From an uncultured virus (IMG/VR IMGVR_UViG_3300025066_000019) (taxonomy: Duplodnaviria > Heunggongvirae > Uroviricota > Caudoviricetes), in the IMG/VR virus record IMGVR_UViG_3300025066_000019: a stretch of 64,000 nt of DNA; one strand, given 5' to 3'. Both the position numbers and the translations under genes were made by a program. Shown one piece after another: positions 25,728 through 64,000 of this stretch (positions are counted from its first letter, which is position 1; every line of letters starts with the position of its first letter). The notes under the pieces were generated by a model, which ran no database searches, was not told the origin of the DNA, and was given only the letters and a program-made list of their open reading frames with translations.

Positions 25728-26024
25728 ATGAGTAGTCGCGTGATGGATGCTATCGACACCGTGGAAAAACGGTTGACGGGGAAAATGACACCTGAGGAGC
25801 TAAATGTTGCCTCCAAGTCGCTCAATATCGACTTTCAGGATATGTGCGAATTTCAGGAAATAAAAAGTCTGGCAGTTGCCAACGGGATTCTTACTCCTCA
25901 AGAGGGGTCTGAAATCTACTGTCGAGTGGGGCATAGTCCCAAGACGTTCAACAATCAGCCCTTTTGCGTGAAGTACGGAATTACGGCTATCATTGCGAGC
26001 GTGAGCAAGCAGTTGACAAAATAA
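25728..26024 (+). CDS. Hypothetical protein
   Basis: GGGAGA RBS. Confidence 0.65.
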   Translation: MSSRVMDAIDTVEKRLTGKMTPEELNVASKSLNIDFQDMCEFQEIKSLAVANGILTPQEGSEIYCRVGHSPKTFNNQPFCVKYGITAIIASVSKQLTK

Positions 26025-26083
26025 CGGGGAAGTGTTACAATCTGGGTATCAAGTCACAAGTCACTTTGTTCGGGAGAAACAAA

Positions 26084-26668
26084 ATGGAAGGTACAAGTCA
26101 CAGCGGCTACCTACGAGATATGTTTGCGTCACCGGCTGCACTGTATGAGGCAGTCGAATACCTGAAGGACGTTATCGAGGAGCAAGCGATTGAATTCGAT
26201 GCCATCGTCGTTCGGGGGGTGTCGGGGGCAGTCATCGGGGGGGCTTTAAGTCTGGCCCTGAGGAAACAGTTGACGGTAGTCCGCAAGAGGGGGGTGGATT
26301 GCCACTCCGAAATCGTGGGCCAATGTGAGGGGTTGTTACACGCCCCCCACAAGTACCTGATAGTTGACGATTTTGTGGCAACGGGTAAAACACTCGCCCA
26401 CATCGTCGCAGAAGTGGGGCTAGGGAATGCGATGGCTGAGTGTGTCGGCTTTATTCCCTACCACAACGATTATCGGGATGGGGAAGTTCGGGATTTGAAC
26501 CAAGCCACGCATCGGCTTATGCAAGCGGCGATGGCTGGCAAGTTTGACCCTACGGATGGGAGTGTTGACGACGATTGGGATAGGGCTTGGCACGCTGGGG
26601 AAGCGGAACGCTTTGAGGAGTATCTCCGCAAGGCTGGTGCATTACTAGAGGAGGAACCAACAGAATGA
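26084..26668 (+). CDS. Phosphoribosyltransferase-domain protein
   Basis: PRPP-binding loop YLIVDDFVATGKTL; RGVSG and VVRK motifs. Confidence 0.85.
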   Translation: MEGTSHSGYLRDMFASPAALYEAVEYLKDVIEEQAIEFDAIVVRGVSGAVIGGALSLALRKQLTVVRKRGVDCHSEIVGQCEGLLHAPHKYLIVDDFVATGKTLAHIVAEVGLGNAMAECVGFIPYHNDYRDGEVRDLNQATHRLMQAAMAGKFDPTDGSVDDDWDRAWHAGEAERFEEYLRKAGALLEEEPTE

Positions 26669-27336
26669 TGTTTTACAAAGTGGGGGGTTGCGTCCGTGAT
26701 GAAATCATGGGCGTCAACTCCAAGGATATTGACTACACTGTAGTCGGTGAATCGTTTGAAGCGATGAAATTAGAAATTGAGAATCGAGGGGGTCAAATCT
26801 TCCTTGAGAAACCTGAATTTCTAACCATTCGAGCGAAAGTCCCCGGTATGGGGGCGTGTGATTTTGTTCTAGCCCGTCAGGATGGTGACTATAGCGATGG
26901 TCGCCACCCCGAAAGGGTGGAGCCAGGAACTCTTGAAGATGACTTGGCCCGTCGTGACTTCACGATGAACGCAATCGCCCAAGGGGAAAACGGTGGAATC
27001 ATCGACCCCTACGGTGGGCGGTTTGATATTGCCCGCAGGGTAATCGTGGCAGTCGGGAATCCTTACGACCGATTCAAAGAGGACTATCTAAGGATGTTGC
27101 GGGCTGTACGGTTTGCAATCACCAAGGATATGAAACTATCGCAGGACGTTAATGACGCTATCGTAGTGTTAAGGCGTCACATCAGCGAGGTAAGTGTCGA
27201 GCGAATCCGCGAGGAATTGTACAAGGCATTTATGCACGACACTTTGAAAACTATCGCTCTACTGAGCGAATTGAAACTACTTGAGGAGGTGTTTGATAAA
27301 ACTCCCCTCAGGTTAAAACCTACTTTGGAATCCTGA
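26665..27336 (+). CDS. cca: tRNA nucleotidyltransferase (CCA-adding/poly(A) polymerase family, short form)
   Basis: VGGCVRD, KDIDY, DLARRDFTMNAIA, EDYLRMLRAVRF, ERIREEL; no HD domain. Confidence 0.9.
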   Translation: MMFYKVGGCVRDEIMGVNSKDIDYTVVGESFEAMKLEIENRGGQIFLEKPEFLTIRAKVPGMGACDFVLARQDGDYSDGRHPERVEPGTLEDDLARRDFTMNAIAQGENGGIIDPYGGRFDIARRVIVAVGNPYDRFKEDYLRMLRAVRFAITKDMKLSQDVNDAIVVLRRHISEVSVERIREELYKAFMHDTLKTIALLSELKLLEEVFDKTPLRLKPTLES

Positions 27337-28460: not shown

Positions 28461-28667
28461 ATGTTCAAGTACCAAGTTATTGTGGGGAATGTGGGAACCG
28501 TCTACGATGGTGACGGTTATCACGAGTCTCTGGAAATTTACAGCCACTACAAAAAAGCATCAAAGTCTGGTGTTGGTCGTGCAAGTGGGGAGGATGTCGC
28601 CCTAGTCGTTGACGGTGACATTAGGTTTGAAACTTTAGGGAGCAATTACCATGACGCCAATCACTAA
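28461..28667 (+). CDS. Hypothetical protein
   Basis: YQVIVGNVGTVYDG; RBS within promoter spacer. Confidence 0.65.
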   Translation: MFKYQVIVGNVGTVYDGDGYHESLEIYSHYKKASKSGVGRASGEDVALVVDGDIRFETLGSNYHDANH

Positions 28668-36839: not shown

Positions 36840-37079
36840 ATGGAGAAGTATGAGATTGAGATTACTTGGGAAATGTCGGGGAAGGTGACTGTTGAGGCTG
36901 ATAGCCTGGAAGACGCCATCTGTGACGCAGCAGGTTGTTCTCTCCCCCTGGACGGGGAGTATGTGAGTAACTCTTTCAGGGTACTAACACGAGAGTGTGA
37001 CTACTGTGGAGGGAACTGCCCGAATGATGACAGTGGTGATAATTTATGCGATGGGTTTGCTGCCGGTTGGACAGCTTGA
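36840..37079 (+). CDS. Hypothetical protein
   Basis: GAGG RBS; VTVEADSLEDA; Cys-rich tail. Confidence 0.6.
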   Translation: MEKYEIEITWEMSGKVTVEADSLEDAICDAAGCSLPLDGEYVSNSFRVLTRECDYCGGNCPNDDSGDNLCDGFAAGWTA

Positions 37080-37102
37080 CAAAATAAAAACAAAGAGGTA
37101 TA

Positions 37103-37501
37103 ATGATGGAAACAATCGACAAGGTTAGTATTGTTGTTACCCCCGAAGAATCTCCGTTTATTCAGCTTATGCTGTTCAGTCATGGTTATGGATGGAACAG
37201 AGGAGCAACCAAGGAGGTACGCAACGTAAACAATAGTCGTCTCTTTCTTTATGTGACCAGTAAAGACTTAACCTACGGAAGGGAATGTTTTGTGGAAGAA
37301 TTCGTTCCAACCCTTACCGCAGAAGAACTCTCTGGTTTTTTGAGTGGCTCTTATGTTCCTCCTCCACTATGTAAGAAATTCACGGTTGACGAATACGATG
37401 TTACCGTTTTTCCTGGTGGGAGCGTTAAGTTTGGATGTACGACAATCGACAAGGATGATGTCAAGAAGATTGTTGAGGCGTGGACTGTAACAGCTAACTA
37501 A
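37103..37501 (+). CDS. Hypothetical protein (paralogue of 36461-36838)
   Basis: Shared motifs. Confidence 0.7.
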   Translation: MMETIDKVSIVVTPEESPFIQLMLFSHGYGWNRGATKEVRNVNNSRLFLYVTSKDLTYGRECFVEEFVPTLTAEELSGFLSGSYVPPPLCKKFTVDEYDVTVFPGGSVKFGCTTIDKDDVKKIVEAWTVTAN

Positions 37502-37518
37502 CAAAGATAGGAAAGAAC

Positions 37519-37776
37519 ATGGCAAAGGCTACAGCAACGAAGGTATCAATAACTACTGTAAACCTAGAGCTAACTGAATTAGAGGCTCAGTTGCTAATTA
37601 GAATGTACGGACAGTTTATTGTCGGTCCTAACTCAAAAGGGGGACCAGTAAACCTATTACAAGGAATTGCTCAATCCCTTGAACATGTAGGTATTGAAGA
37701 CCAATGGGATTTATTAGATAGTTCAGGTACTCAAACACTGGCACTAAACAAGGGGCCAAACTGGCCTAAAGGTTAA
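37519..37776 (+). CDS. Hypothetical protein (paralogue family)
   Basis: VNLELTELEAQLL motif. Confidence 0.6.
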   Translation: MAKATATKVSITTVNLELTELEAQLLIRMYGQFIVGPNSKGGPVNLLQGIAQSLEHVGIEDQWDLLDSSGTQTLALNKGPNWPKG

Positions 37777-37793
37777 GCACCGAGACTCCCTCC

Positions 37794-37837
37794 GACCCCC
37801 GGTAGTTCCCCTCCCTCATGCTGCCGGGGGTCTTCTT
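37794..37837 (+). terminator. Terminator-like hairpin with CTCCC loop
   Basis: GACCCCCGGTAG...CTGCCGGGGGTC, weak T tract. Confidence 0.6.
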
Positions 37838-38111
37838 ACATCTTCCTCGTCACTTGACAGAATAAGAGATAGATGCTATAATAAGGACATAAGAAAGAAT
37901 GAACTTCAAAGAAGCACAAGGGTGGGTTAAGGAAAAGATGGTAGGGGTGGTTGATGACGACTATCCTGATGCACTGGACGATTTGGTTGTTGAACTTATG
38001 ATTCATCACAGTTTTACAGAGGCAGAAGGTGACGCTGTTGTTCAATCAGAATGGTGGGTTTGACAGAATAAGAACTAAATGGTAGAATAAGAGCATGAAA
38101 GAGAGGGAACG

Positions 38112-38357
38112 ATGATAACAGCACAAGAACGACGAAAGAAGATTGAAGCAGAGAAGGCTAAAAGGGCCACTGACGCTACAGCTAAGTTGATAGCTAAGGT
38201 GACAGATGAAATTGAACGAGACGAGCAGAACGGATACACAAACAGTATCCATTGCAACAAAGAGGTTGTTAAGTACCTGGAAGCCTTAGGTTATGAAGTC
38301 ACCTATAGACCTGCGGCTGGCATGGGGGATGTAGAGTCACATGTTATCAAATGGTAG
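38112..38357 (+). CDS. Hypothetical protein
   Basis: GAGGGA RBS. Confidence 0.6.
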   Translation: MITAQERRKKIEAEKAKRATDATAKLIAKVTDEIERDEQNGYTNSIHCNKEVVKYLEALGYEVTYRPAAGMGDVESHVIKW

Positions 38358-38388
38358 TCACTTGACAGAATAAAGGAACAATGTTATA

Positions 38389-38601
38389 ATGGCGAACATG
38401 TTAAAAGAAGTACTAGAACACATTGAGCTAGAGACAAAACTAATTGCCACCCTTGAGGCCAATCCGGTCAAGCCCGAATACTATGAGGGGTATAACTACC
38501 CCAAGGGTGACTATGCGGTGTACGTGACAGAAATTAAAGATGCCTACTGGCGACGACGAAATTTATACATGAAGCGTGACCAGTTGACAGGTTTAGAATA
38601 A
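38389..38601 (+). CDS. Hypothetical protein
   Basis: ATG overlaps -10 box. Confidence 0.6.
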   Translation: MANMLKEVLEHIELETKLIATLEANPVKPEYYEGYNYPKGDYAVYVTEIKDAYWRRRNLYMKRDQLTGLE

Positions 38602-38759
38602 AATGGTAGGATAAGGACATGAAACTACAACGAGCATTGGACTGGGTTCACTACCATGGAACTAGCAAGCCAACAGAAAGCATTAGTGATGCGAGATGGA
38701 AAGCTATGGTTCAACACATCTACTTATACTACTTGACAAAATGAGAGGGAGTTGATACA

Positions 38760-39299
38760 ATGGAAGAGTACCTAACACATAGTCAGTGTCAGAGGGTTAT
38801 CGACTGGACATTTGATACCCTTGGATGCCCTGAACTAAAGAAGATGACGACATTGAAGTTCAACAGGCGGTTCACCGCTAGGTTGGGGGATGCAGGAAGA
38901 AAACTGGTAGAAATGAATACCTATCGGTACACAATCCGCCTGTCATCCTCACAACTATGGTCAAGAGCGACCATTAAAGAGCGATACGAAACTATCGTCC
39001 ATGAGGCTTGCCATATTGCACAGTTTTATAAATGGCCGAAAGGGACAGACGCACATGGGGTCGAGTGGAAGTCTCTCATGCGAGCATGTGGAGTAAAGCC
39101 GACACGATGCCATACCGTGGACCGTACAGGTCTCAAACGCAAGACGCGACGGGTGAAGGTCTTCGGCTGTACATGTGGCAGTTGTCCTGACGTGACGGTA
39201 CGACGGGCTAATAAAATGCGGAAAATGACGGGAACCCGTTTGTTCTGTATGAGATGCAAGGAAACACTAACACTTGACAGAGTAAGGACTAAGTGCTAA
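38760..39299 (+). CDS. SprT-like zinc metalloprotease
   Basis: ETIVHEACH...HGVEWK...C plus C-terminal Cys ribbon. Confidence 0.85.
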   Translation: MEEYLTHSQCQRVIDWTFDTLGCPELKKMTTLKFNRRFTARLGDAGRKLVEMNTYRYTIRLSSSQLWSRATIKERYETIVHEACHIAQFYKWPKGTDAHGVEWKSLMRACGVKPTRCHTVDRTGLKRKTRRVKVFGCTCGSCPDVTVRRANKMRKMTGTRLFCMRCKETLTLDRVRTKC

Positions 39300-39300
39300 A

Positions 39301-39555
39301 ATGAAGATAACACTGATAGAAAACAAGCCGGTAGGAATGGCGATTAGTAATTTTTCTGGCGGGGACATTGTTCAATGTGTTAAGGTTCCCCCAGGTGCAA
39401 ATGCAGACCGAGATAAAATATGTATGGTTATCGAGGATTATAAACACCCTCTGGTAAACATGAAACCAAGCGATGGGTTTACCCTATGGGGAAACGAACA
39501 CAGCGGATACCTGTTTAAGAAGATAGGTTATCTACAGATTGACTTGACAGAATAA
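39301..39555 (+). CDS. Hypothetical protein
   Basis: RBS in promoter spacer. Confidence 0.6.
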   Translation: MKITLIENKPVGMAISNFSGGDIVQCVKVPPGANADRDKICMVIEDYKHPLVNMKPSDGFTLWGNEHSGYLFKKIGYLQIDLTE

Positions 39556-39570
39556 GGAACAAGTGCTATA

Positions 39571-39828
39571 ATGAGTGAACAAGACAAAGACGAAGCCGTG
39601 TGTGTCAACTGTGAAGATGGTGGCTGTGGTCACTGTGAAAACCTGGAGGAATTAACTCCTGCATCACAGGCATTGGCTAATGCGTTTGACAACCCTGATG
39701 ACTTTGATTGGGGAATGACTGAAGAACGTGAGGAAGCCGGATTCGCCAACTTCGGGACAACTCCTGAAGAGGCAGAGCGATTGCGTCAGTTGGAGTATGA
39801 CAAGGTAGAATTGCCAGAGACCGACTGA
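39571..39828 (+). CDS. Hypothetical acidic protein (CxxC x2)
   Basis: RBS in promoter spacer. Confidence 0.6.
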   Translation: MSEQDKDEAVCVNCEDGGCGHCENLEELTPASQALANAFDNPDDFDWGMTEEREEAGFANFGTTPEEAERLRQLEYDKVELPETD

Positions 39829-39861
39829 GTACCACCTAAACGACAAAGATTGGAGGGAGCA

Positions 39862-40371
39862 ATGAGAGACACGATTGAAAGAATACCGATGTGCTGGAAG
39901 TGTTCTGAATGTATCTCTGTGGAGCTACCTGTTGAGATGCATCTCCCTGCTGTACGTGAGATGGTAGGTTGTAAGGCTTGCGATGAAATCAAGTCTTACA
40001 TAGATGCCGATAAGTTATGTCCTATTCTTAAAAAAAGAGAAGAGATTATGATTGGCTACAAGCTGTTCAAAAAGCGTAAGAACGGGACGCTGGGTCCGCT
40101 ATTTATCAATCGCAAGCTGGTAGTTCCTATTGGCGAGTGGATGCAAGCAGAGGCCCATCGTACTAAAGGTTTCGCGTTTCGTCCAGGGTGGCACGCCTGT
40201 GCTGTTCCTGTAGCTCCTCACCTGAAGATGAACCTAGCCAACGGAGAGACAAGGGTTTGGTGTAAGGTTGAGTTGCTAGATGTTGATGTAGAAGAGAGAC
40301 CAAAGGCTCAGGGAGGAAAGTGGTTCCTCGCTGGTCAGTTAAGAGTTATTGAAGAGGTTGTTGCCTCTTGA
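39862..40371 (+). CDS. Hypothetical protein (possible second start at MIGYKLF)
   Basis: GGAGGGAG RBS; GYKLF...GPLFIN...RPGWH. Confidence 0.65.
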   Translation: MRDTIERIPMCWKCSECISVELPVEMHLPAVREMVGCKACDEIKSYIDADKLCPILKKREEIMIGYKLFKKRKNGTLGPLFINRKLVVPIGEWMQAEAHRTKGFAFRPGWHACAVPVAPHLKMNLANGETRVWCKVELLDVDVEERPKAQGGKWFLAGQLRVIEEVVAS

Positions 40372-40412
40372 CAGAATGAATACTAAATGTTAGAATGTGG
40401 AGACAAGAGAGA

Positions 40413-41036
40413 ATGATGAAAATGCCAAACGATGTAAAAGTTGGAGACGTGATTGACTTTCGATACTCAAGGGGCACAAACCCTGGAGCTATCAGAACAA
40501 AGGTGAAGATTATAGGAAAGGACAAGCATTTGCTGAAAGCGTTGCTTCCTCCCTATCTTTCAACGTCTGATTGTTATAGGAATTATAACACAAACGGAAT
40601 GAGTCACATTCTCAAGGTTGGGTCGTTCAACCCTGAGGCAAGACAAATATCCATGAGTGAAGCGAAGGATATTATTGTTGACAAGATTGATGCTTCAGAG
40701 GCATCAGGCGAAAGCATTGCTGAGTTGATAGTCCAATCACTGGGCGACCGACAAACCCTTGCACACTTACAGTCGATTCTGAAGGATGAAGACGTTACCT
40801 TCAACGATTCGACATATGAGTTTGAGGTTCATCCTGAAAAGCATGGTAAATTCGTTGAGTCCTTAGGTGGTGCCAACGTGGTGATGAAAAACACAAAAAG
40901 AGATACATTTGTCATTGAGCCAACAAAACAAGACGGTGAGGCAAGAGTCCTTATCACTGGTGGACCAGAGATTATAGATAAGAGTGTAAAAACCCCTGAG
41001 GAACTTTGTGAACTATTAGAGAACTTTCTCTCGTAA
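40413..41036 (+). CDS. Hypothetical protein
   Basis: ~207 aa after promoter. Confidence 0.7.
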   Translation: MMKMPNDVKVGDVIDFRYSRGTNPGAIRTKVKIIGKDKHLLKALLPPYLSTSDCYRNYNTNGMSHILKVGSFNPEARQISMSEAKDIIVDKIDASEASGESIAELIVQSLGDRQTLAHLQSILKDEDVTFNDSTYEFEVHPEKHGKFVESLGGANVVMKNTKRDTFVIEPTKQDGEARVLITGGPEIIDKSVKTPEELCELLENFLS

Positions 41037-41068
41037 ACTTTTTCTTTTTTTTGAGGAACCATGAAACA

Positions 41069-41527
41069 ATGGAAAACTCTACAACTGCGACCGAGACCCC
41101 TGCTGTTACTGAAACTGCTGCCCCTGAGGCTGCTGCCACTCCTGAGGCAAAGCCTGCTGCAAAGCCTGCTGCCCCTCCTCGTGTGGATGCTGAGACGTTC
41201 GTCAACGGCTTTCGAGACGTTGCTAATGGAACAGCAACCTTTACCGACAAGTCTAAGCCTTGTGGACCAATCAAGACGATTGTGGTTGGTGCCTCTGTTC
41301 CTGTGAGCCGCAACGGTGTTGCTGCCCTTTTGGGAATGAAGTATAACGCTGCGGTGAACCGCGAGAAGGCTTATCGTGAGAAGGGAGTTAAACTTCCTGA
41401 GATTAAGCTGTCTCAGCGAGGTGCGTCCCTCGACGTGGCATCACTGAACGCATTGCTCGTCGATGCCGAAGTGGTCGAGCAGGCTGTGGCTGAGCCTACA
41501 ACTGAAACGGTAAGCGACCAAGGCTAG
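41069..41527 (+). CDS. Hypothetical protein with Ala/Pro/Thr-rich N-terminus
   Basis: GAGG RBS; precedes the tRNA-like RNA cluster. Confidence 0.7.
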   Translation: MENSTTATETPAVTETAAPEAAATPEAKPAAKPAAPPRVDAETFVNGFRDVANGTATFTDKSKPCGPIKTIVVGASVPVSRNGVAALLGMKYNAAVNREKAYREKGVKLPEIKLSQRGASLDVASLNALLVDAEVVEQAVAEPTTETVSDQG

Positions 41528-41535
41528 TGACGGTC

Positions 41536-41628
41536 GTGGACATGGTCTAGTGGACAAGACGCCCCTCGACGGTAGGATTTAATTACCCCTACCGAGGGGA
41601 GACTAGGGTTCGACTCCCTATGTCCTAC
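41536..41628 (+). ncRNA. tRNA-like RNA with elongated anticodon arm
   Basis: D-arm GTCT-AGTGGACA-AGAC, T-arm TAGGG-TTCGACT-CCCTA, GGACA/TGTCC acceptor pairs; anticodon arm replaced by CCCCT..CGGTAGG/CCTACCG..AGGGG. Confidence 0.7.
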
Positions 41629-41696
41629 TTAGAAGAAATCCAAACATCGACGCAAGGGGTATGCAACCCGCCGCGAGAATCGCGGTTCGATGTAAC

Positions 41697-41775
41697 GGGC
41701 TTGAAATGGCTTCGACTCACTGAAAATCTTTAACGAGAACAGTTGAGTACTAGGGTTCGATTCCCTACAGGTCCA
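41697..41775 (+). ncRNA. Minimal tmRNA tRNA-like-domain RNA
   Basis: GGGCTTG/CAGGTCC-A with G3.U70 and A73, stemless AAATGGCTTCGAC loop, short helix, canonical T-arm; no tag ORF. Confidence 0.7.
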
Positions 41776-41788
41776 CTTGATACATATA

Positions 41789-41907
41789 TACTGTTCTGGG
41801 TTTGGCCTTGAGCAAAACTCACCACAAGGTCTAAAGTAAGACAGTGAGTGTCAGAAACGGTCCTAGTGTTGCTTAGGCGGCAAGTTCAACTCTTGCCAAC
41901 AGTACCA
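41789..41907 (+). ncRNA. tRNA-like RNA with encoded CCA and non-canonical core
   Basis: TACTGTT/AACAGTA-CCA, T-arm GCAAG-TTCAACT-CTTGC, internal TGAGCAA/TTGCTTA and ACTCAC/GTGAGT helices. Confidence 0.6.
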
Positions 41908-42145
41908 ACTCAACTTTGTTTTACTTAAACTACCAAGATTGGAGAGAGAGATGCAATACGAAGTATACCTGACCAAGACCGTACACCTCTTTGTTGAGGC
42001 TGACAACAGCGACGATGCCGCTAACCTAGCATTGCTGGAAGCGGACACAGATAATAGCTGGGGTAACGCCCCTGCTGACCTGTACAGTGTAGACGAAGTT
42101 GATGAAGACTAACACCATTTGACAGAATAAGGGAGAAGTGCTACA

Positions 42146-42328
42146 ATGGAAATCAAAGACTTAGGAACGATGAACGGATGGGGTGAAACCTATCCTCAAG
42201 CCTACGACGACCACGTTAAGAATGACGAATGTAGGAATAAGGCTGAAGTGGTTAAGACCGGAAACTGTCGCTATCAGACCACTTGTGGCAACTGTGGAGT
42301 TCGATTCAGCGTTGACTCCTCAGACTGA
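42146..42328 (+). CDS. Small hypothetical protein (CxxC)
   Basis: RBS in promoter spacer. Confidence 0.6.
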   Translation: MEIKDLGTMNGWGETYPQAYDDHVKNDECRNKAEVVKTGNCRYQTTCGNCGVRFSVDSSD

Positions 42329-42405
42329 TTTGACAGAATAACGACCAAGTGCTACAATACTAGAACAAGACGACGAAACATTTTACTTTTTTTGGAGATG
42401 CAAAG

Positions 42406-43671
42406 ATGAATACTAAAGTTTTAGGTAACGGCGACACGTTGGCAGACCAGAAGGAACACTTCACTGACTCACAAGATAAGGGTCATGGGTTCCGTAACGT
42501 GTCCAAAGTTTGGACTGAGCAATGTATTACATTCCAGCAGGGACGAGAGTTGCTGGCTGACCAACAGCAGGCTATTACCGACATTCGGTGTGGTCTCGAT
42601 GGTTGGGCTACCGATGTTGTGGATGGACAGTTTGTGATGGTTCATAAGGCAAGCGGTAACGCTTACCGTCCAACCTCTCATGCAATCAAGAACATTGCAT
42701 ACGTGGGGAAGGGTTCGAGTTGGCAACTGGCTGACTTGTTAGAGCCGAAAGTGCATACCTCCTCCAAGGACAAGCGGACGGGTGAGCCTAAGGTGTTGTT
42801 CGAGCGTGACGAACGAGATGCAGAGTTGCTCTGTAACATCGTGGACCACTACTTGTTTAACGCAGACCGATTGGAGCAGGATAAGATTCGTCTGTTCCGA
42901 ACGTGGAGTGATGGTACTTTGCGGGCTGTATTGTCGGACCAGTACTCAATCGTGAACAATGATTGGTACATGTCTGTCCTTGAGGAAGCAATTCCTGGGG
43001 GGTTATTGTCCCACTGGCGAGGGGATGCCGACACTATCTTCGGCAACGTACTCATTCCCGATAGCATTCGTCAGGAAGACGATTCTGCCTACGGTGGTAT
43101 GCTTTCGGTGGGTAACTCAGAGATTGGTTTGCGACGTATCATGTCCCTGCCTAGTGTGTTTCGAGCAATCTGTATGAATGGTTGCATCTGGGACCAAGAG
43201 AACGGCAAGGGGTGCAACAAGGTGCATCGTGGAGAGATTAACCTGGAGCAACTCAAGTTTGAGATTATCGAGGGTCTCCAGAAGCAAATCCCTCTGTTGT
43301 CAAGCGGTATCGACCGACTGTTGCTCACCAAGCAACTGAAGATTGGTATTACCCCACTAAAGAATATCCTTGCGGTTATCTGTAAGGAAAACGGCATCAC
43401 TAAGAGACGAGTGCCTGCCCTTGCTAAAGCCTTCAAAGTTGAGGAGAACATTCTCGGCTCTGAGGTTCGTACTGCCTTTGGTGTTGTTTCAACCATTACC
43501 CGGTTTGGTCAAGAACTGGAGAATGACGGTTGGGTTAAGATGGATATGGTTGGGGGTGAGCTTTCCAACATTGATTCTCCATCTTGGGAAAACCTGTTGA
43601 AGCGTGCTGGCGGCTTGTCTGACAAGCAAGTAGAGAAGATTCTGGGTGATATTTCTCACCTTCTCGGCTAA
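42406..43671 (+). CDS. DUF932-like protein
   Basis: RAVLSDQYSIVNN, GNSEIG, FRAICMNG motifs. Confidence 0.65.
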   Translation: MNTKVLGNGDTLADQKEHFTDSQDKGHGFRNVSKVWTEQCITFQQGRELLADQQQAITDIRCGLDGWATDVVDGQFVMVHKASGNAYRPTSHAIKNIAYVGKGSSWQLADLLEPKVHTSSKDKRTGEPKVLFERDERDAELLCNIVDHYLFNADRLEQDKIRLFRTWSDGTLRAVLSDQYSIVNNDWYMSVLEEAIPGGLLSHWRGDADTIFGNVLIPDSIRQEDDSAYGGMLSVGNSEIGLRRIMSLPSVFRAICMNGCIWDQENGKGCNKVHRGEINLEQLKFEIIEGLQKQIPLLSSGIDRLLLTKQLKIGITPLKNILAVICKENGITKRRVPALAKAFKVEENILGSEVRTAFGVVSTITRFGQELENDGWVKMDMVGGELSNIDSPSWENLLKRAGGLSDKQVEKILGDISHLLG

Positions 43672-43874
43672 ACCCGAAGCATCTCATGGGTGGGGGGCAA
43701 TTGACATGTCCCCTGCCCATCTTTACTACTTGACAAAACAAGCTCACTTTGCTAGAATAGCGTATGACCACTATAATGACAATCATAATCGTACTGAGCA
43801 TCGCCAAAGGAATTTGGGACGATGTTAAGTAATACTCTGTTACAACTAAACCACAAAGATTGGACAGTCTTCTT

Positions 43875-58620: not shown

Positions 58621-58716
58621 GGTGGCGACTGGTGACTGGTGTTGCCCTTGGTCTACAAAACCAATGAGGGGTGCGTAAACCGCATCCTTGGTAGGTTCGA
58701 TTCCTATCCGCCACCG
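58621..58716 (+). tRNA. tRNA-Sec-fold tRNA with ACA anticodon
   Basis: 8-position acceptor, 6-bp D-stem with 4-nt loop, long variable arm, 5-bp T-stem, G73; anticodon loop CTACAAA. Confidence 0.8.
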
Positions 58717-63447: not shown

Positions 63448-63476
63448 GGATAAAAAACAATCCTTCTTCAAAGGCA

Positions 63477-63513
63477 AAGGGGCGGCTCTTTCGAGAGAGT
63501 CGTTCCTTTTTTT
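63477..63513 (+). terminator. Intrinsic terminator
   Basis: GGGGCGGCTCT-TTCGAG-AGAGTCGTTCC + T tract. Confidence 0.8.
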
Positions 63514-63564
63514 ATGGATTGACTTGACAAAACCCCGTTGGGGATGCTATAATAAGGTACACAA

Positions 63565-63968
63565 GGGCCATCACTGGTATCGACTGGATGGATTGAATTG
63601 TGAATTGCGTGTCGTGGTTGGTTAGTTGGCCACGTAAAAAGCTAACCGAAAATCTTAATTGCTAACACAAATAAGAACGTTATCGCCAATACCATCGCTG
63701 GTGTTGCTCCTCGTTTCGAGGGAAATAGCCTAAACGCCACAAGCGTTTCTGCTATCCGTTCCGTAGCTCTGGTTGCGTAACAAAGCCTTGGTCGGGCTAA
63801 ACAGACCAAACGTGTCGGCGTTACCGGCCTAGTCCCAACAATGTGTATGAGTGGGTAAAGACATCCATTACACTGACTTTGTTTGCTGAGTAAGATTCAA
63901 CAAACTATACACGTAGACGTTTGCGGTACAGACATAACAGGACTCGGGTTCGACTCCCGAATGGTCCA
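63565..63968 (+). ncRNA. ssrA: tmRNA
   Basis: GGGCCAT/ATGGTCC-A with G3.U70, CTGGTATCGAC 5' motif, T-arm TCGGG-TTCGACT-CCCGA, tag ORF 63661-63780 ending ALVA*; own promoter at 63524. Confidence 0.92.
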
Positions 63969-64000
63969 CTTGACAGAAAAGGTTTGAAATGGTAGAAAAG

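What the first reader, a model, noticed from the sequence alone, without database searches (positions are those of the whole stretch)
41697..41775. 79-nt tmRNA tRNA-like domain with no mRNA-like domain
Seen: it parallels this phage's own tmRNA (GGGCTTG-AAATGGCTTCGAC vs GGGCCAT-CACTGGTATCGAC; AC-TAGGGTTCGATTCCCTA-CAGGTCCA vs AC-TCGGGTTCGACTCCCGA-ATGGTCCA). It keeps the G3.U70 and A73 alanine identity, but helix 2 (ACTCACTG/CAGTTGAGT) is capped by a 17-nt loop instead of pseudoknots and a tag ORF. Established: the TLD binds SmpB and EF-Tu, and tag-less tmRNAs occur in some mitochondria. Inference: an SmpB sponge that blocks host trans-translation, or a tag-free ribosome rescue RNA.
Basis: partly seen in the sequence, partly recalled or inferred. 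Interest (0 to 1): 0.85.

Follow-up and report, generated by a model that had tools for sequence, protein, structure and literature searches.

The report
Phage tag-less mini-tmRNA beside full tmRNA
This uncultured phage carries a real 79-base gene for only the alanine-accepting, tRNA-like end of the bacterial ribosome-rescue RNA (tmRNA), a cut-down form already published for mycobacteriophage DS6A and common in phages, which here sits in the same genome as a complete tmRNA.

Summary
Window 41697-41775 (+) is a tmRNA tRNA-like domain (TLD) with a 7-bp acceptor stem, G3:U70, A73, the tmRNA-specific UGGCUUCGAC motif, a T arm, and helix 2 closed by 17 nt. It has no pseudoknots and no tag frame. 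Rfam tmRNA scores it 46.8 bits (cut-off 47). A covariance model built only from 23 other viral mini-tmRNAs scores it 70.9 bits (E 4e-16).

It belongs to a phage family. 93 of 120 IMG/VR pattern hits are such RNAs, and covariation is strong, with G3:U70 in 75 of 75 distinct sequences. The published "TLD only" tmRNA of mycobacteriophage DS6A scores 63.5 bits on the same model. The kind is therefore known, and this scan has reported it before on other DNA.

What is less usual is that this phage also carries a full tmRNA (63565-63971, 39-residue tag) behind its own perfect sigma-70-type promoter. Only 1 of 15 other mini-tmRNA phage records tested had both.

My best reading is that it is charged with alanine, uses host SmpB and EF-Tu, competes with full tmRNAs at stalled ribosomes, and adds no degradation tag. 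Function is inferred, not shown. Verdict: new member of a known kind, moderate-to-low interest.

The parts
41697..41775 (+). TLD-only mini-tmRNA gene (79 nt, through discriminator A73)
   Evidence: R1 covariance model 70.9 bits, E 4.2e-16, model 1-78. Rfam RF00023 46.8 bits over 41697-41778.
41697..41703 (+). acceptor stem 5' strand GGGCUUG (G3 at 41699)
   Evidence: Sequence. It pairs with 41768-41774. The family keeps G1:C72 in 74/75, G2:C71 in 75/75 and G3:U70 in 75/75.
41707..41716 (+). UGGCUUCGAC, the tmRNA-specific D-loop analogue
   Evidence: Aligned to the Rfam tmRNA consensus UGGaUUCGAC. UGG and UCGAC are invariant in the family alignment A3 (75/75), and the U before them is kept in 74/75. 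Part of this motif was fixed by my search pattern.
41716..41722 (+). helix 2 (P2) 5' strand CUCACUG
   Evidence: R1 alignment. The family helix shows covariation, with 5 of 6 pairs changed on both sides.
41723..41739 (+). 17-nt cap AAAAUCUUUAACGAGAA replacing pseudoknots and tag frame; possible 3-bp hairpin UCU/AGA (41727-29 with 41736-38)
   Evidence: Sequence. The family has an A-rich run followed by a small hairpin (e.g. CCG-CACG-CGG) at this place. It is too short for any tag frame.
41740..41747 (+). helix 2 3' strand CAGUUGAG (one bulged U), followed by UAC where most members have GAC
   Evidence: The second G of the family's GGAC is G in 66/75 and U in 5/75 including the window; the following A is 75/75.
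41751..41767 (+). T arm UAGGG-UUCGAUU-CCCUA
41768..41775 (+). acceptor 3' strand CAGGUCC (U70 at 41772) and discriminator A73 (41775)
41776..41778 (+). 3' trailer CUU: CCA is not encoded
   Evidence: CCA is encoded in only 14 of 75 family members.
40368..40396 (+). nearest upstream sigma-70-type promoter (TTGACA-17-TAGAAT); likely start of the transcript carrying two ORFs and the RNA cluster
   Evidence: No promoter or terminator lies directly at the gene. Co-transcription is inferred.
26665..27336 (+). phage tRNA nucleotidyltransferase (223 aa, head/neck only), a candidate to add the missing CCA
   Evidence: Pfam PolyA_pol 77 bits. PHROG 2244 'tRNA nucleotidyltransferase' 176 bits. NCBIfam CCA tRNA nucleotidyltransferase 140 bits, below its full-length cut-off.
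63565..63971 (+). the phage's full-length tmRNA (context): tag frame from 63661, 39 residues ending ALVA, stop at 63778-63780
   Evidence: Rfam RF00023 103.1 bits. Tag read. Ortholog in a related 125-kb viral record.
63524..63553 (+). perfect sigma-70-type promoter (TTGACA-18-TATAAT with TG) 12 nt before the full tmRNA, after a terminator at 63476-63509

Best explanation
It is a phage gene for a TLD-only ('mini') tmRNA of the DS6A type. The RNA is cut out of an early transcript and given CCA, possibly by the phage's own nucleotidyltransferase. It is then charged with alanine by the host AlaRS through G1:C72, G2:C71, G3:U70 and A73. Bound by host SmpB and EF-Tu, it enters ribosomes stalled on message ends in competition with full-length tmRNA. 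It can accept the nascent chain on its alanine, but it offers no resume codon and no tag. The net effect is that degradation tagging (trans-translation) is suppressed or bypassed, and the ribosome must be cleared by host back-up routes. Shown here: the anatomy, membership of the family, selection on structure and on alanine identity, and the absence of a message. Inferred: charging, SmpB/EF-Tu binding, ribosome entry, and the effect on the host.
For: Identity: RF00023 46.8 bits with the whole middle deleted. R1, built from 23 other viral mini-tmRNAs, scores it 70.9 bits.

Same family as published DS6A: NC_023744 28478-28557 scores 63.5 bits on R1.

Selection: in A3 (75 distinct sequences) 97.9% of cells pair, against 68.4% in shuffles. 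409 cells changed on both sides, against 126 in shuffles and about 50 with slid partners.

Alanine identity: G3:U70 is kept in 75/75, G2:C71 in 75/75, G1:C72 in 74/75 and A73 in 75/75, while acceptor pairs 4-7 vary freely. The acceptor stem was not part of my search pattern. This argues that charging matters, which a passive sponge would not need.

Host dependence: there is no SmpB among 121 window ORFs or in 5 of 5 mini-tmRNA phage records.

Own expression signal in a syntenic relative: TTGACA-N16-TAGAAT lies 8 nt before the mini-tmRNA of L255.

Literature (passages read):
- A similar TLD-only molecule strongly inhibits tmRNA in E. coli (PMC4131195, PMC11915505, both citing Mao 2009).
- A truncated TLD-only tmRNA accepts peptidyl transfer in vitro (PMC3895274, citing Shimizu and Ueda 2006).
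- A truncated tmRNA was crystallised with SmpB and EF-Tu on the ribosome (PMC8363625).
Against: No experiment exists on this RNA or this phage, and the host is unknown.

The quoted E. coli result says inhibition did not need chargeability, which favours a plain sponge. I could not read Mao 2009 itself.

The phage also carries a full tmRNA with a perfect early-type promoter. An inhibitor of trans-translation would hit that RNA too, which fits a pro-rescue role better.

The window copy has U where 66/75 members have the second G of GGAC, and its inner hairpin is weak. The alignment used for pair counts was fitted to the model, and GGG/CCC of the T stem and the UGG..UUCGAC motif were fixed by my pattern.
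Confidence: 0.45

Rival explanations
1. Productive tag-free ribosome rescue. The mini-tmRNA exists to free ribosomes stalled on broken messages during infection, alongside the phage's own tmRNA. Release after alanine addition would be done by host factors (ArfA/RF2, ArfB, or drop-off and Pth).
For: Alanine identity is invariant. The phage invests in a full tmRNA as well, so it looks pro-rescue. CDS-less tmRNAs of some mitochondria and plastids are thought to work with SmpB (PMC11915505, passage). A TLD-only RNA can accept the peptide in vitro (PMC3895274, passage).
Against: There is no resume or stop codon, so the ribosome is left with peptidyl-Ala-RNA and an empty A site. No RF-1/ArfB-like or Pth gene occurs in 5 of 5 complete mini-tmRNA phage genomes or among the window's 121 ORFs. 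The one reported test in E. coli saw inhibition, not help (PMC4131195, passage).
Confidence: 0.25
2. Passive SmpB sponge. The RNA only soaks up host SmpB, so charging and ribosome entry are irrelevant.
For: Hudson et al. [quoted passage not shown] The tmRNA-specific elbow motifs are kept.
Against: G3:U70, G2:C71 and A73 are kept in 75 of 75 and G1:C72 in 74 of 75 distinct sequences, while neighbouring pairs vary. That is unexplained if charging is irrelevant. A sponge would also starve the phage's own early-expressed tmRNA.
Confidence: 0.2
3. Decoy for a host defence that senses or cuts tmRNA- or tRNA-like RNAs, for example systems with SmpB-like domains.
For: It sits among other odd tRNA-like RNAs. 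Defence systems with SmpB-like domains are predicted to bind tmRNA (PMC11090510, passages). This is only a lead.
Against: Nothing in the window ties it to such a system. Family conservation matches AlaRS and tmRNA elbow features rather than any known nuclease site.
Confidence: 0.05
4. A dead remnant of a tmRNA gene after an internal deletion, or a mis-read ordinary tRNA, permuted tmRNA piece or attP fragment.
For: ARAGORN does not call it. Rfam is 0.2 bit under its cut-off. There is a weak tmRNA_permuted match at 41751-41804 (21.6 bits, E 0.031).
Against: It matches a family-wide covarying structure over its full length. Syntenic copies occur in related marine phages (L254-L256, 51-55 bits). 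It has no anticodon arm, and every other member of the tRNA clan scored lower than tmRNA. It includes the 5' half that an attP core would lack, and no integrase was found among 121 ORFs.
Confidence: 0.03

Closest known systems
'TLD only' / CDS-less tmRNA of Mycobacterium phage DS6A (tmRNA Website tmID 11587; Mao et al. 2009 as cited in PMC4131195; PMC11915505)
   Same: The architecture is the same: acceptor with G3:U70 and A73, UGGU(G)GUCGAC elbow motif, helix 2, A-rich run plus small hairpin, T arm, about 80 nt, phage-encoded, no tag. DS6A 28478-28557 scores 63.5 bits and the window 70.9 bits on one model built from neither.
   Different: The phage lineage and likely environment differ (relatives of the window phage are marine metagenome contigs). 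The window copy is AU-rich (46% GC against 70%), with a weak inner hairpin and U for the second G of GGAC. In the RF00023 searches of 14 of the 15 mini-tmRNA phage records only a short match appeared; DS6A was searched only with the mini-tmRNA model. The window phage has a full tmRNA as well.
Standard bacterial/phage tmRNA (Rfam RF00023), including this phage's own at 63565-63971
   Same: The tRNA-like domain is the same: acceptor, alanine identity, UGGxUUCGAC, GGAC-type junction, T arm.
   Different: It lacks pseudoknots, resume codon and tag frame. 314 model positions are replaced by 23 nt.
CDS-less organelle tmRNAs (jakobid mitochondria; Mallomonadaceae plastids, about 65 bp)
   Same: They are reduced to the tRNA-like domain and thought to act with SmpB without tagging (PMC11915505, passage).
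   Different: They are organelle genes, often permuted in mitochondria (recalled), and arose by reduction in a resident genome. The phage form is a mobile gene acting in a host that has its own full tmRNA. No sequence comparison was made here.
Laboratory TLD constructs (truncated tmRNA used for SmpB/EF-Tu/ribosome structures and kinetics)
   Same: The design is the same: helix 2 closed by a short loop. Such RNAs accept peptidyl transfer and bind SmpB and EF-Tu on the ribosome (passages in PMC3895274 and PMC8363625).
   Different: They are engineered from bacterial tmRNAs. The natural family adds a conserved A-rich run and mini-hairpin of unknown role.
tRNA-Ala
   Same: It has G3:U70, A73, an acceptor and a T arm.
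   Different: It has no D stem, no anticodon arm and no anticodon. ARAGORN makes no call, and the Rfam tRNA clan members score below tmRNA.

Membership tests
Phage TLD-only mini-tmRNA (DS6A type) | Full-length match to a sequence-and-structure model of the family built without the candidate | tested here: met
   R1 (23 viral members) gives 70.9 bits, E 4.2e-16, model 1-78, no non-standard pair. In the same searches ordinary tRNAs and the full tmRNA score 21 bits or less.
Phage TLD-only mini-tmRNA (DS6A type) | Helix 2 closed by a short cap (tens of nt), with no pseudoknot and no tag frame | tested here: met
   17-nt cap at 41723-41739. Family caps range from 4 nt to about 30 nt.
Phage TLD-only mini-tmRNA (DS6A type) | Alanine identity set: G1:C72, G2:C71, G3:U70, A73 | tested here: met
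   All are present in the window. Family counts are 74/75, 75/75, 75/75 and 75/75.
Phage TLD-only mini-tmRNA (DS6A type) | Encoded by a phage | tested here: met
   Terminase, capsid and other phage families occur in the window. The family is rare in cellular genomes: 9 of 80 pattern loci scored above 50 bits.
Phage TLD-only mini-tmRNA (DS6A type) | Junction motif GGAC 5' of the T arm | tested here: inconclusive
   The window has GUAC. The second G is G in 66/75 and U in 5/75; the A is invariant. The effect on SmpB binding is unknown.
Phage TLD-only mini-tmRNA (DS6A type) | Alanylation, SmpB and EF-Tu binding | not testable with these tools
   This needs in vitro charging and binding assays.
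tmRNA (Rfam RF00023, functional trans-translation RNA) | Score at or above Rfam gathering cut-off (47 bits) | tested here: not met
   46.8 bits, and not listed in the gathering scan. Other family members reach 51-76 bits.
tmRNA (Rfam RF00023, functional trans-translation RNA) | mRNA-like domain with resume codon, tag frame and stop | tested here: not met
   Only 17 unpaired nt lie between the strands of helix 2.
tmRNA (Rfam RF00023, functional trans-translation RNA) | tRNA-like domain with tmRNA-specific elbow motif | tested here: met
Ordinary tRNA (RF00005) | Cloverleaf with D stem and anticodon arm | tested here: not met
   ARAGORN makes no call. In the E-value Rfam scan the best clan match is tmRNA and the lower clan match was dropped.
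Permuted (two-piece) tmRNA (RF04321) | Acceptor piece followed by coding piece; score of 47 bits or more | tested here: not met
   21.6 bits, E 0.031, covering only the T arm and 3' strand. The 5' strand lies upstream in standard order.

The most novel reading that the evidence does not exclude
The phage runs a two-RNA takeover of trans-translation. Both RNAs appear to be driven by early sigma-70-type promoters (inferred). In one version, the mini-tmRNA displaces the host tmRNA from SmpB and stalled ribosomes, so that phage proteins escape the host degron. In another, repeated rounds add short alanine tails. Meanwhile the phage's own tmRNA supplies a phage-chosen 39-residue tag. On this reading the pair together re-programmes, rather than simply blocks or boosts, the fate of stalled chains.
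Probability: 0.1. Interest if true: 0.7.

Novelty: new member of a known kind. Interest (0 to 1): 0.33.

Why it matters
Phage interference with ribosome rescue is little studied. A small, easily synthesised natural RNA that engages SmpB, EF-Tu and stalled ribosomes without tagging is a ready probe of trans-translation, which is an antibiotic target. The family is widespread and mostly unannotated: DS6A and four cultured Streptomyces phages carry it with no feature in their records.

This window adds one case in which mini and full tmRNA coexist. The invariant alanine identity argues that charging, not just SmpB titration, is under selection. That makes the sponge-versus-rescue question directly testable with a G3:C70 mutant. 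It does not change the known picture: the kind is published and has been seen repeatedly.

Tried and rejected
- DNA similarity to cultured phages: none for 40500-43000 or for the full tmRNA. The 96-base query gave only T-arm matches to tRNA-Phe genes and similar.
- Exact 20-mer of the gene in IMG/VR: 0 hits.
- Relatives of the upstream 158-aa ORF in IMG/VR: none.
- Relatives of the downstream 421-aa protein in IMG/VR: 17 loci, no mini-tmRNA. The best hit (35.3 bits) is a tRNA-Ile, as ARAGORN reads the identically placed hit in the metagenome locus L287.
- Whole genome: not held.
- Mao et al. 2009: not held, so it is known only through citing passages.
- Literature search for a described family under 'TLD-only', 'mini-tmRNA', 'minimal tmRNA', 'tag-less tmRNA' or 'truncated tmRNA': no paper on a phage family beyond DS6A. 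Subscription journals are not covered.
- Single-sequence folding: z -1.58, uninformative.
- Permuted-tmRNA, ordinary-tRNA, attP and pseudogene readings: rejected as set out under the rival explanations.
- Phage-encoded partners in complete mini-tmRNA phage genomes: SmpB 0/5, RF-1/ArfB 0/5, Pth 0/5.
- The first MAFFT alignment of 54 members (A1) misaligned the 5' strand. I replaced it with the 23 members that have a 3-nt linker (A2).

Full report
**What is there**

Window 41697-41775 (+) reads: GGGCUUG-AAA-UGGCUUCGAC-UCACUG-(17 nt)-CAGUUGAG-UAC-UAGGG-UUCGAUU-CCCUA-CAGGUCC-A. The acceptor stem has seven pairs including G3:U70, and the discriminator is A. The UGGCUUCGAC motif is the tmRNA counterpart of the D loop. 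Helix 2 has seven pairs with one bulged U and is closed by 17 nt, so there is no room for pseudoknots or a tag frame. CCA is not encoded (the trailer is CUU).

Rfam's tmRNA model aligns both ends and skips 314 model positions, giving 46.8 bits, E 2.7e-17 in an 801-base scan. That is 0.2 bit below the gathering cut-off, and it beats every other member of the tRNA clan. This is why the default Rfam scan and ARAGORN are silent.

**The host element**

The window is from a phage. It holds a large terminase, a capsid protein, an HNH endonuclease, dUTPase and a sigma factor. The terminase is at best 24-29% identical to those of cultured phages, and there is no DNA match in INPHARED. No whole genome is held. 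Relatives found through the 421-aa protein at 42406-43671 are 35-57% identical. They lie on large viral contigs (83-160 kb) and on many contigs whose names point to marine surveys.

**It is a member of a widespread phage family**

The motif was UGGNUUCGAC, then 20-50 nt, then GGGUUCGANUCCC. In 93 of the 120 loci the hit is flanked by a 6-7-pair acceptor stem that my pattern did not ask for, giving 65 distinct sequences of 63-86 nt. The 27 rejected loci are mostly tandem tRNA T arms and one repeated unrelated element.

From the 23 distinct members with a 3-nt linker I built covariance model R1, without the window sequence. R1 scores the window element at 70.9 bits, E 4.2e-16, over the full length with no non-standard pair. 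It scores the phage's full tmRNA at 20.9 bits and tRNAs lower.

I gave R1 80 sources, and 76 matched at E <= 1e-6. In the 75 distinct sequences:
- 97.9% of pair cells are standard pairs, against 68.4% in shuffles.
- 409 cells changed on both sides, against 126 in shuffles and about 50 when partners are slid.
- G1:C72 is kept in 74/75, G2:C71 in 75/75, G3:U70 in 75/75 and A73 in 75/75, while acceptor pairs 4-7 vary freely.

Two caveats apply. The alignment is fitted to the model. The T-stem GGG/CCC and the elbow motif were fixed by my pattern. The acceptor stem and helix 2 were not.

**It is the published DS6A kind**

Hudson, Lau and Williams 2014 list 'Mycobacterium phage DS6A (TLD only)'. They say a similar molecule, chargeable or not, strongly inhibits tmRNA, perhaps by titrating SmpB, citing Mao et al. 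2009 (PMC4131195, passages). The 2025 tmRNA database paper repeats this and adds CDS-less plastid forms (PMC11915505, passages). I could not read Mao 2009 itself.

In the DS6A RefSeq record the RNA is not annotated. R1 finds it at 28478-28557 with 63.5 bits and the same layout. Cultured Streptomyces phages LuckySocke, pSt2308, Shaeky and BRock carry unannotated copies (65-70 bits) among their tRNA genes.

In the species-representative genome collection the same pattern gave 83 stretches. Of the 80 loci listed and searched, only 9 score above 50 bits, mostly on MAG contigs. The family is therefore essentially viral.

My literature searches found no paper describing the family beyond DS6A. Subscription journals are not covered. 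This scan has reported the same kind at least six times on other DNA. Those notes agree with what I found independently.

**Conservation in this lineage**

Among 80 metagenome loci encoding relatives of the downstream 421-aa protein, three carry a mini-tmRNA on the same strand about 2-2.4 kb upstream (L254, L255, L256, each about 50% identical). They score 51-55 bits. About 40 of the 80 loci have that much upstream sequence. L255 has the same 5' strand GGGCUUG as the window, and a TTGACA-N16-TAGAAT promoter lies 8 nt before the gene. Their elbow and T-loop variants (AGG, UUCGACA) escape my pattern, so the family is broader than the scan shows.

**Context in the window**

The gene lies in a 375-nt RNA cluster (41536-41910) directly after ORF 41051-41527, between two odd tRNA-like elements and a stable hairpin. 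There is no promoter or terminator at the gene itself. The nearest upstream one is TTGACA-17-TAGAAT at 40368-40396. It is one of 12 near-perfect sigma-70-type promoters on the + strand between 37 and 44 kb. Co-transcription and processing are inferred.

The phage encodes a short tRNA nucleotidyltransferase at 26665-27336, which could add the missing CCA. No SmpB, release-factor-like, Pth or integrase gene is among the 121 ORFs of 60 or more codons that I scanned. The window is only part of the genome.

**The unusual point: a full tmRNA in the same phage**

The full tmRNA at 63565-63971 scores 103.1 bits on Rfam. It has a 39-residue tag frame from 63661 ending ALVA. A perfect TTGACA-18-TATAAT promoter ends 12 nt before it, after a strong terminator. 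An ortholog exists in a related 125-kb viral record (113 bits).

I searched 15 other phage records that hold a mini-tmRNA in full with RF00023 (10 IMG/VR records, 7 of them at least 90% complete, and 5 cultured Streptomyces phages). In 14 only the short match appears. One, Streptomyces phage Riptide, has a 269-nt tmRNA (92.9 bits) plus an off-type mini copy (48.1 bits). Coexistence is therefore uncommon but not unique.

**How it most likely works**

Shown by sequence: the RNA keeps everything a tmRNA needs to be charged with alanine and to look like the tmRNA elbow, and nothing to serve as a message.

From the literature passages: a TLD-only RNA binds SmpB and EF-Tu on the ribosome (PMC8363625), accepts the peptide (PMC3895274), and a similar molecule inhibits tmRNA in E. 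coli (PMC4131195).

Inference: the phage RNA uses host AlaRS, SmpB and EF-Tu, competes with full tmRNAs at stalled ribosomes, and adds alanine without a degron.

Two observations pull in different directions:
- The invariant alanine identity argues against a purely passive SmpB sponge.
- The co-resident, apparently early-expressed full tmRNA argues against a simple blocker and leaves productive tag-free rescue a serious rival. Against that rival, no phage-encoded release factor or Pth was found in five complete mini-tmRNA phage genomes.

I put 0.45 on the charged-competitor reading, 0.25 on tag-free rescue, 0.20 on a passive sponge, and the rest on a defence decoy or a remnant.

**Weak points of this copy**

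It has U instead of the second G of the GGAC junction (G in 66/75, U in 5/75). Its inner hairpin (UCU/AGA) is much weaker than the family's CCG/CGG type. Expression could not be checked.

**Verdict**

The kind is already published and common, so this is a new member of a known kind. Coexistence with a full tmRNA is its only distinguishing feature.

Noticed in passing
window 58621-58715 (+): A tRNA-Sec-like gene (Rfam RF01852, 68.9 bits) whose anticodon loop reads CUACAAA, giving anticodon ACA rather than UCA. ARAGORN at a lowered threshold calls it tRNA-Cys(aca), 94 nt. It may be a Sec-shaped tRNA re-assigned to another codon.
   Followed up: partly
window 41536-41628 (+): A 93-nt tRNA-like element directly upstream of the mini-tmRNA cluster. 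ARAGORN reads it either as tRNA-Arg(acg) or, with introns allowed, as tRNA-Gly(acc) with a 23-nt intron. The top of the acceptor stem is mismatched and there is no Rfam tRNA match. Its T arm differs from the mini-tmRNA's by one base.
   Followed up: partly
window 41644-41693 (+): A stable branched hairpin between the two tRNA-like genes (-22.5 kcal/mol, z -3.43, 0 of 200 shuffles as good). It may be a processing signal.
   Followed up: no
window 41789-41908 (+): A 120-nt element with a 7-bp closing helix (UACUGUU/AACAGUA), a T-arm-like hairpin GGCAAG-UUCAACU-CUUGCC and an encoded CCA-like end. No Rfam or ARAGORN call. Its helix ACUCAC/GUGAGU echoes helix 2 of the mini-tmRNA.
   Followed up: no
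window 37076-43758 (+): Twelve sigma-70-type promoters with 11-12 of 12 consensus matches, 17-nt spacers, mostly with the extended -10 TG, in front of nearly every small gene. This is a dense early-gene-like array.
   Followed up: no
window 63565-63971 (+): The full tmRNA is missed by ARAGORN although Rfam gives 103 bits. Its tag frame is unusually long (39 residues, ending ALVA). The ortholog in a related viral record is 346 nt, with gaps in the aligned tag region.
   Followed up: partly
window 26665-27336 (+): A short (223 aa) tRNA nucleotidyltransferase with head and neck domains only, next to a phosphoribosyltransferase-like gene (25964-26668).
   Followed up: partly
L055 1488-1811 (-): ARAGORN calls a 324-nt tmRNA (tag AWDYNPMWVQCSA) that shares its 3' end with the 80-nt mini-tmRNA of that contig. 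This is probably an artefact, but it was not checked with Rfam.
   Followed up: no
L322 (Streptomyces phage Riptide PV654398.1 83298-83374 and 94862-95130): A cultured phage with both a 269-nt tmRNA (92.9 bits) and an off-type mini copy (48.1 bits) whose elbow motif (GGUUAGAU) and junction (UGAA) have drifted. The mini copy is unannotated in the record; I did not look at the annotation at the tmRNA's place.
   Followed up: partly
L006, L015, L027, L028 and 10 more loci (IMG/VR sample 3300045988 and others): A repeated element of about 90 nt, CUGGAUUCGAC...GGGGUUCGAAUCCCC, which matched my pattern but has no GGG acceptor or alanine identity. It is a different tRNA-like RNA on 93-162-kb viral contigs.
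   Followed up: no
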